From a virus (lineage: Duplodnaviria; Caudoviricetes), in the IMG/VR virus record IMGVR_UViG_3300049595_005065: a DNA stretch of 64,000 nucleotides; one strand, written 5' to 3'. The notes under the pieces were generated by a model. That model worked only from the letters and a program-made list of their open reading frames with translations, had not been told where the DNA came from and made no database searches. Below are positions 57,673 through 64,000 of this stretch, piece by piece. The number at the start of each line of letters is the position of its first letter. The first letter of the stretch is position 1. The translations under genes and the position numbers were made by a program.

Positions 57673-60600
57673 ATGCCAGACTCGATCCTCTCTGGGCCGA
57701 CGCAGCCGCCCCCGACGCGCGCATTTGGTGACATTAGCGCTTTGCGCAGCGGCATCTTCGATCGAGCACTGCAAAGCGCGTCTTCGCTCGAGCCAATCAA
57801 GAACGATCTCTACACGCTCCAGCTTTCGGGCGTGCAGTACACCGGCCCGGAACGCTACACAAAGGCCGACCAGAAAAAAGCCGTCCTCACGGGCAACTCG
57901 CTTCACCGGCGGCTCACAGGCACCTGGAATCTGATTGACAACGCCACCGGGCAGCCAATCGCGCAGCGCCCGCAGACGATCGCCCACGTGCCGTACCTTA
58001 CCGACTCCGGCACGTTCGTGAACCGGGGCGTCGAGTACACCCTCGCCCACCAGATGCGCCTCAAGCCGGGCGTCTACACCCGCGAGAAGGACAACGGTGA
58101 GCTTGAGGCGCACGTCAACGTGCTGCCCGGCAAGGGTCGGATGCACCGGTACTTCCTAGACCCAAAGACCGGCGTGCTGAACATCAACATCGGCCAAGCG
58201 AAGATTCCACTCATGCCGCTGCTCAAGGCGATGGGCGCCAAAGAATCCGACATCCGCGCCGCCTGGGGCAACGAGATCACCGCCGTCAACATGGAGAAGG
58301 GCGATGCGGGAACCCTTGACAAGCTCTACCAGCGCCTTGTCTACAAGCAGGTCCCTGGACTGGACGCCGCCGCCAAGCAGAAGGCAATTGCGGACGAGTT
58401 TGCCCGCATGGAACTCGACCCCGACGTTACGCGGCGCACTCTTGGCAAGGAATACAAAAACCTTACCCCCGAGGCGATTCTCGACGTTACGAAAAAGCTC
58501 ATTGCCCTCAACCGCAAAGAAGCTGATCCAGACGACCGCGACGCCATGGCGTACCAGAGCGTCGTTGGACCCGAGGATCTGATCTCCGAGCGGTTCACCA
58601 AGGACAAGCAGAGCCTGCGCAAGCTGCTCTGGAAGGCGACCGCCAGGAAGAACCTGGATCACGTCCCGACCGGCGTGTTCAACAAGGCCATTCAGGCGGC
58701 GCTGATCGGTTCGGGCCTGGGCAGCTCGCTCGAGGAAATCAATCCGGCCGAGATCTTCGACCACCAGGGCCGCGTGACCCGCATGGGTGAGGGCGGCATC
58801 GGCTCGCTCGACGCAGTGCCCCAGGAATCGCGCAGTGTCCAGCCCAGCCACCTTGGGTTCGTGGACTTCCTGCGCACGCCGGAATCAGGCAAGGTGGGCG
58901 TCGACATGCGCTTCGCGCGCGGCGCCATGAAGGGCGCCGACGGCAAGATCTACACGCCGGTCGTGAACATGAAGACCGGGCAGTCCGAGCTGAAAACGCC
59001 GGGCGAGCTGGCCGACATGCCGTTGGCCTTCCCCGGCGAGGACAAGGGCGACATGCCGATGGTTGCCGCGCTGGTGGGCGGCAAGATGAAGTACGTCCCG
59101 CGCGAAGAAGTCCAGTTCTCGCTGCCCCACATGGACAACACGTTCTCGGGTCTCTCGAACATGGTCCCGATGAAGTCCTACATGAAGGGCCACCGCGTGA
59201 TTATGGCCAGCCGCATGTTCACCCAGGCCCTGCCACTCTCGGGTGCCGAGGCGCCGCTGGTCCAGTCCGCCGTGGCCGATAAAGACGGTGTCTCTCACGA
59301 AGACGAGATGGGAGAGCGGCTCGGCGCCGTGAAGGCGCAGTTTGCGGGCCAAGTGATTTCGGCAGAGCCGGGCATGATCGTGCTGCGCGACCGCGAGGGC
59401 AAGAAGCACGAGATCGACCTGTACAACGACATGCCATTCAACCGTAAGACGTTTTGGCACCAGACGCCGGTCGTGAAGCCGGGCGACGTAATCAAGCCCG
59501 GGCAACTCCTGGCCCACTCAAACTTCACGAACCCGCAGGGCACTGCGGCGATGGGTAAGAACTTGCGCGTGGCCTACCTGCCGTACCAGGGTAAGAACTA
59601 CGAAGACGCCGTGGTGATCTCGGAGTCCACTGCGAAGAAGCTCACCAGTGAGCACATGTACCAGCACGAGGCCGAATGGGACGATAACAGTCACGTCGGC
59701 AAGAAAGCTTTCGTCTCGCTCTTCCCGGGCGAGTACGACAAGAAGCAGCTCGAGAACTTCGACGACAAGGGTGCCATCAAGAAGGGCACCGTGGTCAACT
59801 ACGGTGACCCGCTGATCCTCCAGGCCAAAGCCAAGGACACCGTCTACGGCAAAGTTCACCGAGGGCGGGCGGGCAACTTCACCAACGAAACGCTCACTTG
59901 GGAGCACCACTCGCCGGGTGTAGTTACTGACGTCGAGCACACCAATAAGGGCGTGTCGGTCGTCGTGAAGAGCCAGGCCGAGATGCAGGTCGGCGACAAG
60001 CTCACCGGCCGCTACGGCGACAAGGGCGTCGTGGCGGACATCGTTCCCGATCACCGCATGCCCCAAGACAAGGAGGGCAACCCCTACGAGATCCTCGTCT
60101 CGCCGCTGGGCCTGATCTCCCGCGTGAATCCCGCGCAGGTCATCGAGGCGGCGCTGGGCAAGGTGGCTGCGAAGACCGGCCAGCCGTTCAAGCTCAAGGA
60201 TTTCGAGAACGACAAGGACCTGGTGGATTTTGCCCAGAACGAGCTTGGGAAGCACGGCCTCTCCGATACTGAGGACGTCACTGATCCGGAAACCGGCCGT
60301 AAGATCAAAGGCGTGCTGACCGGTAACCGGTTCTTCATGAAGCTTCACCACACGGCCGAGGCCAAGGGCCAGGGACGCGCGATGGGTAGCTACACCGCCG
60401 AGGGCACTCCGGCCAAGGGCGGCAGCGAGGGCGCCAAGCGCGTCGGCATGCTGGATCTCGGCGCGCTGCTCTCGCACGGCGCCGGGAAGGTCGTCCGCGA
60501 CGCGAAGATGGTCCGCGGCCAGGCCAACCCCGAGTACTGGTCGCAGTTTATGTCGGGCTACACTCCGCCGCTTCCCAAGGTCCCGCACGTCTACGAGAAG

Positions 60601-63023: not shown

Positions 63024-64000
63024 ATGCTCAAGACCACACTAGGCCAGCTGCTTGTCAATCAGGCGCTACCCGAGGACATGCGCAACTATGAGCGTGTCCT
63101 GACCAAGAAGGACATGGGCAAGCTGGCCACCGAACTGGCGCAGAAGCACCCGGATAAGTACCGGGACGTTATGAAGCGCTTGCACGACGCTGGCCGGGAC
63201 GCGGCGTACACTACGAACGGTCTGTCGTTCGGGCTCAAAGATATCAAACCGACGCTGGCCGCCCGGGACATCCAGCAGCGTGTGCAGCGGCAGCTCCGCG
63301 GGATTCTGGCCGACCGGAAACTCGACGACAAGACGCGCTCGCTGGCGATTCTCAAGTTGGCCGCAGGCGCCCAGAGCGAGCTGATCGACAAGGTCTATGA
63401 AGAAGCGCGGGGCGTGGACAATCCCCTGGCGCACCAGGTTGCCGGGTCTGCCGTTGGCAACAAGTTCTCGTTGAACTCGCTCATCGGCGCCGACATGCAG
63501 TACGTCGACCACAAGAACGAGCCGATCCCCATTCCTGTGATGCGCGGCTACGGCCAGGGCCTGCGTCCCGTGGAATACTTTGCGGGTGCCTTCGGCACCC
63601 GCAAGGGCGTGATGGATCTGAAAACAGCCACCGCAGACGCTGGCTTTTTCGGCAAGCAGCTCGCCCAGATGACGCACCGCCTGCTTGTCACCGACGACGA
63701 CGAGCGCGACGAGGAGCGCCTCGCCGCCGCGCACGACCGCGGTTATCCCACCGACGTCGACGACACCGACAACGAGGGCGCCCTGCTCGCCCGGCCGGTG
63801 GGGCCCTACAAGCGAAACACGGTCCTGACTCCCAGGATCCTGAAAGATATCAAAGAGATGGGCATCCAGGACATCCTGGTCCGTAGCCCGCTCGTGGGCG
63901 GCCCAGAAGACGGCGGCGTTTACGCCAAGGACGTCGGTTACCGCGAAAAGGGCCGCCTGCCGCCGATCGGCGACTATGTCGGCGTCGCCGCGGCCCAGGC
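63024..64000 (+). CDS. rpoC: RNA polymerase beta' C-terminal subunit (truncated at window edge, not in ORF track)
   Basis: My translation: MLKTTLGQLL..., bridge helix QGLRPVEYFAGAFGTRKGVMDLKTATADAGFFGKQL, VRSP, GDYVGVAAAQ. Confidence 0.93.
   Translation, partial: MLKTTLGQLLVNQALPEDMRNYERVLTKKDMGKLATELAQKHPDKYRDVMKRLHDAGRDAAYTTNGLSFGLKDIKPTLAARDIQQRVQRQLRGILADRKLDDKTRSLAILKLAAGAQSELIDKVYEEARGVDNPLAHQVAGSAVGNKFSLNSLIGADMQYVDHKNEPIPIPVMRGYGQGLRPVEYFAGAFGTRKGVMDLKTATADAGFFGKQLAQMTHRLLVTDDDERDEERLAAAHDRGYPTDVDDTDNEGALLARPVGPYKRNTVLTPRILKDIKEMGIQDILVRSPLVGGPEDGGVYAKDVGYREKGRLPPIGDYVGVAAAQ

What the first reader, a model, noticed from the sequence alone, without database searches (positions are those of the whole stretch)
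57673..64000. Rearranged RNA polymerase: beta fused to beta'-N, with beta'-C as a separate gene
Seen: one 1458-aa chain carries both double-psi-barrel halves of the active site. beta ends at ...LKGAGINT and beta' begins a few residues later (KTHITAL...KPIKGGLFDE), with a catalytic GADFDGD instead of NADFDGD. beta' then breaks just before the TTxG motif and resumes at 63024 with the bridge helix, after two inserted genes. Established: beta-beta' fusions occur in Helicobacter and Wolbachia, and cyanobacterial RpoC1/RpoC2 split shortly after the TTxGR motif. This split is therefore near but not at that point. No alpha, omega or sigma gene is visible in the window. Inference: an independently rearranged phage RNAP lineage. 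The two intervening genes (62064, 62782) are candidate accessory subunits.
Basis: partly seen in the sequence, partly recalled or inferred. Interest (0 to 1): 0.8.

Follow-up and report, generated by a model that had tools for sequence, protein, structure and literature searches.

The report
Fused-and-split phage RNA polymerase
A roughly 200-kb uncultured phage encodes its only RNA polymerase as two chains (all of beta joined to the front of beta', and the back of beta' separately); this layout is shared by hundreds of related phages, is probably carried in the virus particle, and I found no paper that describes it.

Summary
ORF 57673-62049 (1458 aa) carries a complete beta joined in frame to beta'-N through GADFDGD. 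A separate 626-aa gene starts at 63024 and supplies the TTxG motif, bridge helix and trigger loop.

This is not an assembly error. Beta and beta'-N share one frame in 29 of 32 related IMG/VR loci. The same layout occurs in hundreds of protein clusters and in Salmonella phage Arash and Vibrio phages D69/D148/D181.

Trees of the beta part and the beta'-N part each place the fused family as one clade. That clade lies outside all sampled bacteria (14 phyla) and apart from the other phage multisubunit RNAP types sampled.

Five complete relatives each hold one RNAP set, one sigma-70-family gene, and no alpha or omega.

The two genes in the gap occur only in the window's own subclade. They have no recognisable fold, so they are unlikely to be core subunits.

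Virion mass spectrometry of Arash, the position among head genes and the total lack of cysteine point to a virion-packaged, sigma-dependent enzyme. That part is inferred, not shown.

The scan has met this architecture before on other genomes. I class it as a new variant of a known kind, of moderately high interest.

The parts
57673..62049 (+). Fused RNAP gene, 1458 aa: complete beta joined in frame to beta'-N. It contains no cysteine.
   Evidence: ORF and translation. Pfam Rpb2_6, Rpb2_3, Rpb2_2, Rpb1_1 and Rpb1_2 in one chain. Best solved relatives are bacterial beta (7l7b_C, E 8e-63) and beta' (8dkc_D, E 2e-47). Cysteine count 0.
57673..60636 (+). Beta module (residues 1-988). It lacks the large lineage-specific inserts of E. 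coli-type beta.
   Evidence: Alignment with Salmonella RpoB. Motif positions.
60637..60651 (+). Junction: five residues (VRTGT) between the last conserved beta motif (LKGAGINT) and the first beta' residues.
   Evidence: The junction is conserved in the alignment of 39 family members.
60652..62046 (+). Beta'-N module (residues 994-1458). The N-terminal Zn-binding domain is deleted. Clamp helices are kept, catalytic GADFDGD lies at 61762-61782, and the chain ends ...VHIVES.
   Evidence: The C-terminal tail VHIVE[DS] is conserved across the family.
62064..62792 (+). 242-aa Pro/Ala/Gly-rich protein with a conserved central helix. Function unknown; restricted to the window's subclade.
62782..63021 (+). 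79-aa protein, predicted as four strands plus one helix. Function unknown; restricted to the window's subclade. Its stop lies 2 nt before the beta'-C start codon.
63024..64000 (+). Beta'-C gene. It runs off the window; the full gene is 626 aa, to window-equivalent 64904. TTLGQ lies at 63033-63047, the bridge helix at 63558-63662, and the trigger loop starts at 63981. No cysteine, and the second Zn site is lost.
11360..13261 (+). SNF2-family helicase (633 aa, no cysteine). It is the homologue of Arash gp217, which follows beta'-C in Arash and was detected in Arash particles. Candidate RNAP partner.
   Evidence: tblastn against Arash, 32% identity, E 9e-62. Pfam SNF2-rel_dom and Helicase_C. Cysteine count. 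Arash mass spectrometry.

Best explanation
The region encodes the catalytic core of the phage's own, and only, multisubunit RNA polymerase, built from two chains. Chain 1 holds both double-psi beta-barrels: all of beta plus beta' up to just past the Mg-binding DFDGD loop. Chain 2 supplies the TTxG motif, bridge helix, trigger loop and the rest of beta'.

The enzyme is of bacterial type, not phiKZ/AR9 type. It most likely initiates with the phage's own sigma-70-family factor, encoded outside the window, and it works without phage-encoded alpha or omega. Joining beta to beta' covalently may replace the assembly role of the alpha dimer; this is inference.

By homology with Salmonella phage Arash, the two chains, the sigma factor and an SNF2 helicase are probably packed into the capsid and delivered with the DNA to start early transcription. 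Newly made copies would serve later stages.

Shown: gene structure, conservation, phylogenetic position, single copy per genome, and presence of the sigma gene. Inferred: sigma use, independence from alpha and omega, and virion packaging with ejection.
For: Architecture:
- Pfam domains of beta and beta'-N lie in one ORF, and beta'-C is a second ORF.
- The collinear alignment with Salmonella RpoB/RpoC retains the fork/ETPEG-type motif, both barrels, clamp helices, bridge helix and trigger loop.

Reality and conservation:
- More than 120 protein clusters are at least 75% identical, and 1916 have E<=1e-3.
- In the 150 best 50%-identity representatives the beta'-N piece sits at the very C-terminus of long proteins.
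- Beta and beta'-N share one open frame in 29 of 32 IMG/VR loci, and beta'-C is always separate.

Lineage:
- The fused family is monophyletic and outside 79 (beta'-N tree) and 66 (beta tree) bacterial sequences from 14 phyla.
- Similarity to bacterial phyla is flat, at 27-32% identity.

Single RNAP:
- Five relatives that are 100% complete by CheckV (three with terminal repeats) each have one Rpb2_6 locus and one Sigma70_r3 ORF, and no alpha or omega.
- The window's own record shows the same.

Sigma:
- The 270-277-aa ORF matches Sigma70_r3 (E 2e-9) and has a weak r4 hit.
- It has 602 homologues.
- Its AF2 model matches only sigma factors in the top 50 PDB rows, over 224-263 alignment columns, probability 1.00.
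- It is homologous to Arash gp10.
- The complex test of sigma against beta'-N gave median ipSAE 0.52 against a best control of 0.00, rated weak support. The mark is reached by 58 of 80 solved complexes and 2 of 110 mismatched pairs. At 0.60 or under it is reached by only 7 of those 80 and by both mismatches. The runs agree in at least 49% of contacts and the partner pLDDT is at least 61. My own alignments were used, and the pass may reflect memory of solved sigma-beta' complexes.

Virion packaging:
- In Arash, gp206 (the fusion) has the highest spectral count of the particle proteome (3516). gp216 (1210), gp217 helicase (1148) and gp10 sigma (467) were also found (PMC10585845).
- Counts per residue, by my arithmetic, are alike for the four (2.0-2.4). 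The portal gives 1.5 and the major capsid protein 4.3.
- The window's RNAP genes lie directly upstream of homologues of Arash structural proteins gp218 and gp222 and the major capsid protein.
- The 2084 RNAP residues, the helicase and the sigma factor contain no cysteine, while the record's long ORFs average 1.5% (for sigma). 108 of 120 close homologues of the fusion also lack cysteine.
Against: - No experiment exists for this phage or its subclade. Packaging rests on one proteome of a relative only 33% identical.
- That proteome came from sucrose-gradient-purified particles and listed 116 of 272 proteins, including metabolic enzymes. The authors themselves allow that abundant proteins may be carried over.
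- Lack of cysteine is compatible with packaging and ejection but does not prove it.
- Absence of alpha and omega genes does not exclude use of host alpha and omega.
- The sigma factor might instead redirect the host core enzyme.
- The complex test gave only weak support.
- The window's record is 62% complete.
- The trees are quick searches, lack an archaeal or eukaryotic outgroup, join long branches, and sample bacteria from only 599 candidate stretches.
Confidence: 0.6

Rival explanations
1. The same two-chain enzyme is a non-virion polymerase. It is made after infection, transcribed by host RNAP, and used for middle and late genes. It is not packaged; the Arash particle signal is carry-over of a very abundant late protein.
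For: The Arash authors raise this possibility themselves. The particle list is permissive, with 116 proteins including ribonucleotide reductase and a kinase. The RNAP genes sit in what looks like a late, structural operon, so the proteins would be abundant late in infection.
Against: gp206 is the most-detected protein of the Arash preparation. All four presumed partners have similar counts per residue, above the portal's. A single RNAP per complete genome, encoded among late genes, would leave early genes to the host enzyme. That is possible, but it makes the strict lack of cysteine in RNAP, sigma and helicase unexplained.
Confidence: 0.27
2. The products of 62064-62792 and 62782-63021 are accessory RNAP subunits, for example omega or alpha substitutes.
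For: The genes are packed tightly between the two RNAP genes. The stop of the 79-aa gene lies 2 nt before the beta'-C start. Order and sequence are conserved in 21 loci of the subclade.
Against: Both genes are absent from the 46%-identity relative and from the whole Arash-like clade, where the gap holds other genes or almost nothing (606 nt in L033). Among close relatives they are less conserved (46-67% for the 79-aa protein) than the RNAP (76-91%). The 79-aa model is a small beta-sheet plus one helix, unlike omega (all-helical, from my own knowledge), and has no PDB fold match; the best E-value is 0.34. The 242-aa protein is mostly low-complexity.
Confidence: 0.1
3. The fusion is an assembly or sequencing artefact that removed a stop codon, or the locus is a decaying pseudogene.
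For: None found.
Against: The same open frame is found in hundreds of independent assemblies and in four isolate genomes. All catalytic motifs are intact.
Confidence: 0.01
4. The genes are a recent capture of a host rpoBC operon that was then rearranged.
For: Among solved structures the enzyme is closest to bacterial RNAPs.
Against: Identity to every sampled phylum is only 27-32%, with no preferred phylum. All bacteria group together against the fused family in both trees. The rearrangement is shared by clades only 33% identical to each other.
Confidence: 0.03

Closest known systems
Salmonella phage Arash gp206 (1525 aa) + gp216 (606 aa), with sigma gp10 and helicase gp217 (OQ632216; PMC10585845); also Vibrio phages D69/D148/D181
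   Same: They share the same beta/beta'-N fusion and the same beta' split site to within a few residues. The deleted Zn-binding domain is the same. Homologous sigma and SNF2 helicase genes are present, and the RNAP genes lie within the head-gene module.
   Different: Identity is only about 33% for the fusion and 25% for beta'-C. Arash and D69 have AADYDGD, keep four cysteines of the second Zn site, and carry other genes in the gap. Arash places the portal gene just upstream and the helicase just downstream of the RNAP genes. The published description does not note the fusion.
phiKZ / AR9-type multisubunit phage RNAPs (virion and non-virion sets)
   Same: Both are phage-encoded two-barrel RNAPs without alpha or omega, with beta' split shortly after the catalytic barrel. 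One set is packaged in the virion (PMC7598289).
   Different: In those phages beta is itself split into two or three pieces and never fused to beta'. They carry two paralogous sets per genome and no sigma-family factor, and their sequences are far more divergent. The beta'-N genes of EP_H11, RP13 and phiR1-37 end about 30-40 residues before this family's split.
Natural RpoB-RpoC fusions of Helicobacteraceae and Wolbachia
   Same: The beta C-terminus is joined directly to the beta' N-terminus in one polypeptide (PMC7483510, citing Lane & Darst 2010 and Zakharova et al. 1999).
   Different: Those fusions carry a full-length beta' and work with alpha2 and omega. Here beta' is cut after the catalytic barrel.
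Cyanobacterial and plastid RpoC1 (gamma) / RpoC2 split
   Same: Beta' is divided between the catalytic barrel and the bridge helix.
   Different: Beta is separate there. The phage split precedes the TTxG motif. Phage residue 1454 aligns to gamma residue 557 of 625, and RpoC2 residue 35 aligns to phage beta'-C residue 52. The cyanobacterial cut therefore lies roughly 17 aligned residues, plus a lineage-specific insert, further downstream. This mapping is approximate.
Rhizobium phages of Kleczkowskaviridae (RHph_Y65) and Vibrio phage Va2
   Same: They also carry phage-encoded beta' of recognisable bacterial type.
   Different: Their beta' is unsplit (1127 and 1192 aa) and not fused to beta. Y65 keeps the Zn-binding domain and NADFDGD. 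They fall on separate long branches, not with the fused family.

Membership tests
Bacterial-type multisubunit (two-barrel) RNA polymerase core | Beta-type barrel and flanking domains (Rpb2 domains 2, 3, 6) | tested here: met
   Pfam Rpb2_6 E 7e-51, with weak Rpb2_3 and Rpb2_2. Bacterial beta chains match at E 8e-63.
Bacterial-type multisubunit (two-barrel) RNA polymerase core | Beta' barrel with the Mg-binding DFDGD loop, then bridge helix and trigger loop | tested here: met
   GADFDGD at residues 1364-1370; D1366, D1368, G1369 and D1370 are invariant in 39 sequences. Rpb1_2 and Rpb1_5 hits. Alignment.
Bacterial-type multisubunit (two-barrel) RNA polymerase core | Alpha dimer and omega encoded with the core | tested here: not met
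   No PF01000, PF01193 or PF01192 match in the window's own record. No PF01000 or PF01192 match in five complete relatives. Host proteins could still serve.
Bacterial-type multisubunit (two-barrel) RNA polymerase core | Beta' N-terminal Zn-binding domain and second Zn site (four cysteines each) | tested here: not met
   The first domain is deleted in the alignments. There are no cysteines in either chain. The Arash clade keeps the second site.
Bacterial-type multisubunit (two-barrel) RNA polymerase core | Sigma-70-family initiation factor | tested here: inconclusive
   A sigma-70-family gene is present and conserved. Binding to this core has only weak in-silico support and no experiment.
phiKZ/AR9-type split phage RNAP | Beta split into two or three polypeptides | tested here: not met
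   Beta is a single unbroken module fused to beta'-N.
phiKZ/AR9-type split phage RNAP | Two paralogous sets (virion and non-virion) per genome, and no sigma factor | tested here: not met
   Each of five complete relatives has one Rpb2_6 locus and one sigma ORF.
phiKZ/AR9-type split phage RNAP | Beta' split after the catalytic barrel | tested here: met
   The split falls in the same inter-domain stretch but about 30-40 residues further downstream than in EP_H11, RP13 and phiR1-37.
Helicobacter/Wolbachia-type RpoBC fusion | Beta C-terminus joined to beta' N-terminus | tested here: met
Helicobacter/Wolbachia-type RpoBC fusion | Full-length beta' within the fusion | tested here: not met
   The chain stops after ...VHIVES, and the remainder is a separate gene.
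Cyanobacterial RpoC1/RpoC2 split | Split at the cyanobacterial position, after the TTxGR motif | tested here: not met
   The phage split precedes TTLGQ. Coordinates against 8h3v chains E and B place the cyanobacterial cut downstream. The mapping is approximate; a direct check with a short query failed.
Arash-like fused phage RNAP family | Fusion of about 1450-1530 aa plus a separate beta'-C of about 600-630 aa, split at ...V/I-x-I-V/G | TTxG | tested here: met
Arash-like fused phage RNAP family | Homologues of sigma gp10 and SNF2 helicase gp217 in the same genome | tested here: met
   tblastn E 2e-9 and 9e-62. Pfam hits.
Arash-like fused phage RNAP family | Subunits present in purified virions | not testable with these tools
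   Known only for Arash, from mass spectrometry. No particle data exist for this uncultured phage.

The most novel reading that the evidence does not exclude
This is a minimal two-chain RNA polymerase of bacterial type that depends on sigma but needs neither alpha nor omega. It belongs to a lineage branching outside all sampled bacteria. It is packed in the capsid with its sigma factor and an SNF2 helicase, passes through the tail into the host (hence no cysteine and no zinc sites), and is the phage's sole polymerase for the whole infection. The covalent beta/beta'-N link would replace the alpha-dimer assembly platform.
Probability: 0.3. Interest if true: 0.8.

Novelty: new variant of a known kind. 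Interest (0 to 1): 0.62.

Why it matters
Phage multisubunit RNAPs studied so far (phiKZ, AR9) are highly fragmented, lack sigma and are very divergent. This family is different.

- It is much closer to bacterial RNAP.
- It keeps a recognisable sigma factor.
- It has no phage alpha or omega, has lost the zinc sites, and places both catalytic barrels on one chain.

If active as two chains plus sigma, it would be the smallest bacterial-type holoenzyme known. It would also be a natural test of which parts of the bacterial core are dispensable.

Its size (a core of about 2080 residues) and abundance in metagenomes make it a practical subject for structural work and for studying host-independent early transcription. 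Cultured members exist in Salmonella and Vibrio.

It also gives a long, conserved marker for a large clade of roughly 170-210-kb phages.

Tried and rejected
- Assembly error: rejected.
- Recent host capture: rejected by flat 27-32% identity to all phyla and by both trees.
- Membership of the phiKZ/AR9 type: rejected.
- The 242-aa and 79-aa proteins:
  - Pfam and PHROGs gave nothing.
  - The Atlas gave nothing usable.
  - The AF2 model of the 79-aa protein (pLDDT 73) has no PDB fold match, best E 0.34.
  - No homologue lies between the RNAP genes of Arash or D69.
The core alone is 2084 residues, against limits of 1000 for the complex tool and 1200 for the fold tool.
- It returned only weak support.
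- Mapping the cyanobacterial split with the first 70 residues of beta'-C found no cyanobacterial chain. The offset therefore rests on the longer alignments.
- Promoter and terminator scan of 55000-64000: no more sites than in shuffles.
- The palindrome WWAGATATCTWW is absent from the RNAP region; the last copy is at 52769.
- Pfam on neighbouring genes and on other cysteine-free large ORFs gave nothing informative.
- Literature searches for a description of the fusion found none.
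Full report
**Setting.** The window is bases 10995-74994 of a 127,388-bp IMG/VR viral record that CheckV rates 62% complete. GC content is about 62% and nearly all genes lie on the + strand.

**Observation.**
- ORF 57673-62049 is open for 1458 codons.
- Pfam places beta domains (Rpb2_6 at residues 568-908, E 7e-51; Rpb2_3 and Rpb2_2 weakly) and beta' domains (Rpb1_1 weakly; Rpb1_2 at 1324-1388, E 3e-23) in this one chain.
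- A MAFFT alignment with Salmonella RpoB and RpoC is collinear. Beta ends at LKGAGINT (residues 981-988), opposite the last residues of RpoB. Five residues later the chain enters beta' at about RpoC residue 16.
- The chain runs through the clamp helices and the catalytic loop GADFDGD (residues 1364-1370) and stops after ...VHIVES.
- The ORF at 63024 begins MLKTTLGQ, which aligns with RpoC LKDTTVGR. It carries the bridge helix (window 63558-63662) and the trigger loop. In the full record it is 626 aa.
- Two ORFs lie between the RNAP genes, of 242 aa and 79 aa.

**Not an artefact.**
- The fused protein has more than 120 cluster representatives at 75% identity or above and 1916 hits with E<=1e-3, on contigs up to about 212 kb.
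- An exhaustive search with the beta'-N part alone gave 1604 representatives with E<=1e-30. This count includes cellular beta'.
- In the best 150 representatives (45-62% identity) the beta'-N piece lies at the extreme C-terminus of proteins of 535-3350 aa.
- Among 36 IMG/VR loci found with a beta'-C profile, 32 hold both halves. Beta and beta'-N share one open frame in 29 of them.
- The three exceptions are interrupted by inserts of about 1.7 kb or more.
- Beta'-C is always a separate frame, 0.6-4.4 kb downstream.
- The same layout occurs in Salmonella phage Arash (gp206, 1525 aa; gp216, 606 aa) and in Vibrio phages D69, D148 and D181, at about 33% identity.
- The C-terminal tail VHIVE[DS] of the fusion is conserved. 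Arash and D69 break within a few residues of the same point.

Fusion and split therefore predate the divergence of these clades.

**Kind of polymerase.**
- The best solved relatives are ordinary bacterial beta (E 8e-63) and beta' chains (E 5e-38 for beta'-C, 2e-47 for beta'-N).
- PHROG families of unsplit beta and beta' match far better than the phiKZ-type families.
- Bacterial beta' sequences from many phyla are all 27-32% identical to the phage beta'-N, with no preferred phylum.
- An IQ-TREE quick search (LG+C20) on beta'-N with 96 rows places the 12 fused-type sequences on one side of a branch (SH-aLRT 99). All 79 bacteria, from 14 phyla, lie on the other side (98).
- In that tree Rhizobium phage Y65, Vibrio phage Va2, Escherichia phage EP_H11, Ralstonia phage RP13 and phiR1-37 fall on separate long branches.
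- A tree of the beta part (78 rows) gives the same bipartition, with support 100.
- Caveats: these are quick searches, long branches meet, there is no archaeal or eukaryotic outgroup, and the bacteria were drawn from a capped candidate list.

**Differences from bacterial RNAP.**
- The large lineage-specific inserts of E. coli-type beta and beta' are absent.
- The N-terminal Zn-binding domain of beta' is deleted. Rhizobium phage Y65 keeps it.
- Neither chain contains a single cysteine, so the second Zn site is also gone. Arash and D69 keep four cysteines there.
- The residue before ADFDGD is G in 131, N in 39 and other in the rest of 271 family members read. Some motifs are interrupted by inserts. 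The G is thus a clade-level variant rather than a signature.

**Where the split lies.**
- Against the cyanobacterial enzyme (8h3v), phage residues 1091-1454 align to gamma 189-557 of 625. Beta'-C residues 52-414 align to RpoC2 35-409.
- The cyanobacterial cut is therefore about 17 aligned residues, plus a lineage-specific insert, downstream of the phage cut. The phage cut precedes TTxG.
- The beta'-N genes of EP_H11, RP13 and phiR1-37 end about 30-40 residues upstream of the phage cut.
- A review of jumbo-phage RNAPs notes that the phiKZ-type split coincides with the cyanobacterial one (PMC7598289).
- The stretch between the barrel and the bridge helix thus tolerates cuts at several nearby points. 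This family uses its own.

**Partners.**
- No alpha or omega gene is found in the window's record or in five relatives rated 100% complete, three of them with terminal repeats.
- Each of those five genomes has exactly one beta locus and one ORF matching Sigma70_r3.
- In the window's record that ORF is G000:C1:106373-107206, outside the window.
  - It matches Sigma70_r3 (E 2e-9) and has a weak r4 hit.
  - It has 602 homologues.
  - It is homologous to Arash gp10.
  - It has no cysteine.
  - It folds into an all-helical model whose 50 best PDB matches are all sigma factors.
- The beta' clamp helices, the main sigma docking site in bacteria, are retained.
- A controlled complex test of sigma against beta'-N gave a median score of 0.52 against a best control of 0.00, rated weak support.
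  - The mark is reached by 58 of 80 solved complexes and 2 of 110 mismatched pairs.
  - At 0.60 or under it is reached by only 7 of those 80 and by both mismatches.
  - Contact agreement is at least 49% and partner pLDDT at least 61.
  - My own alignments were used, and the pass may reflect memory of solved sigma-beta' complexes.
- An SNF2 helicase at window 11360-13261 is the homologue of Arash gp217.

**The two gap genes.**
- Their homologues are present, in the same order, in the 21 loci of the window's own subclade (beta'-C identity 77% or more).
- They are absent from the 46%-identity relative L032 and from all Arash-like loci, where the gap ranges from 606 nt to 4.4 kb.
- They have no family, Atlas or fold match.
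- I read the split site as a place where genes have been inserted repeatedly, not as an operon of conserved subunits. A subclade-specific accessory role is not excluded.

**Virion packaging (inferred).**
- In Arash, particles purified on a sucrose gradient gave 116 proteins. gp206 had the most spectra (3516), and gp216 (1210), gp217 (1148) and gp10 (467) were also detected (PMC10585845).
- Divided by protein length, these four give 2.0-2.4 spectra per residue. The portal gives 1.5 and the major capsid protein 4.3 (my arithmetic).
- The authors consider both injection and carry-over.
- In the window's record the RNAP genes are followed by homologues of Arash structural proteins gp218 and gp222 and the major capsid protein.
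- The strict absence of cysteine in RNAP, sigma and helicase contrasts with 1.5% in the record's long ORFs. It is shared by 108 of 120 close homologues of the fusion; the exceptions carry a cysteine-rich insert or a single cysteine. This fits proteins that must leave the capsid and cross the envelope, but that reading is an inference.

**Literature and earlier notes.**
- Papers on phage multisubunit RNAPs (PMC7481178, PMC7824862, PMC7598289) do not describe a beta/beta'-N fusion.
- The Arash paper does not use the words fusion or fused.
- Helicobacteraceae and Wolbachia fusions are documented.
- This scan has met the same architecture on other genomes, and follow-up agents reached similar conclusions. 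I re-tested those claims here.

**Verdict.** The finding is a real, conserved and so far undescribed variant of phage multisubunit RNAP. The gene structure and lineage are well supported. Sigma dependence is likely. Virion packaging is plausible but unproven. The accessory-subunit idea for the two gap genes is not supported.

Noticed in passing
relatives P0011/P0012 and loci L025, L031, L038, L046; site equivalent to window 58884-58887: About 1800-aa variants of the fusion carry a roughly 345-aa insert. It sits exactly between TPE and SGKVG of the most conserved beta motif. It starts with Cys, ends ...GN before Ser, and holds almost all the cysteines of these proteins, so it is intein-like. 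Pfam finds no intein domain.
   Followed up: partly
representatives P0129-P0278: Family members reach 3350 aa. Many have the beta'-N match broken at query positions about 235-243 and 367-372, the second at the DFDGD loop. This suggests several further intein-type inserts at catalytic motifs.
   Followed up: no
L043, L047, L048; Vibrio phages D148 and D181: The fused gene is interrupted out of frame by inserts of about 1.7 kb or more. A homing endonuclease is annotated within the match in D148 and D181, so these look like intron-type mobile elements.
   Followed up: no
window 1757-52780: The palindrome WWAGATATCTWW occurs 17 times, against 0 in every one of 100 shuffles. Many copies are AAAGATATCTTT. 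None lies in the RNAP region. Its function is unknown, and a link to the phage's own transcription was not tested.
   Followed up: partly
window 537-884 and 19228-19300: A phage-encoded tmRNA (Rfam 121 bits; tag peptide GTFNSAPALAA) and a tRNA-Met.
   Followed up: no
window 7700-10003, 31686-34619; G000:C1:99978-103388: Three further large ORFs (767, 977 and 1136 aa) have no cysteine at all, like the RNAP, sigma and helicase. The two in-window ORFs have no Pfam match. They may be other ejected proteins.
   Followed up: partly
window 13308-15443: A 711-aa protein with collagen triple-helix repeats (Pfam E 7.5e-35).
   Followed up: no
window 51849-52658: A protein with a peptidoglycan-binding domain plus an M10 (matrixin-type) metallopeptidase domain. 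It is conserved at the same place in relatives.
   Followed up: no
beta'-C, window 63024 onward, compared with Arash gp216 and D69 0264: The four cysteines of the second beta' zinc site are kept in the Arash/Vibrio clade but replaced in the window's clade.
   Followed up: partly
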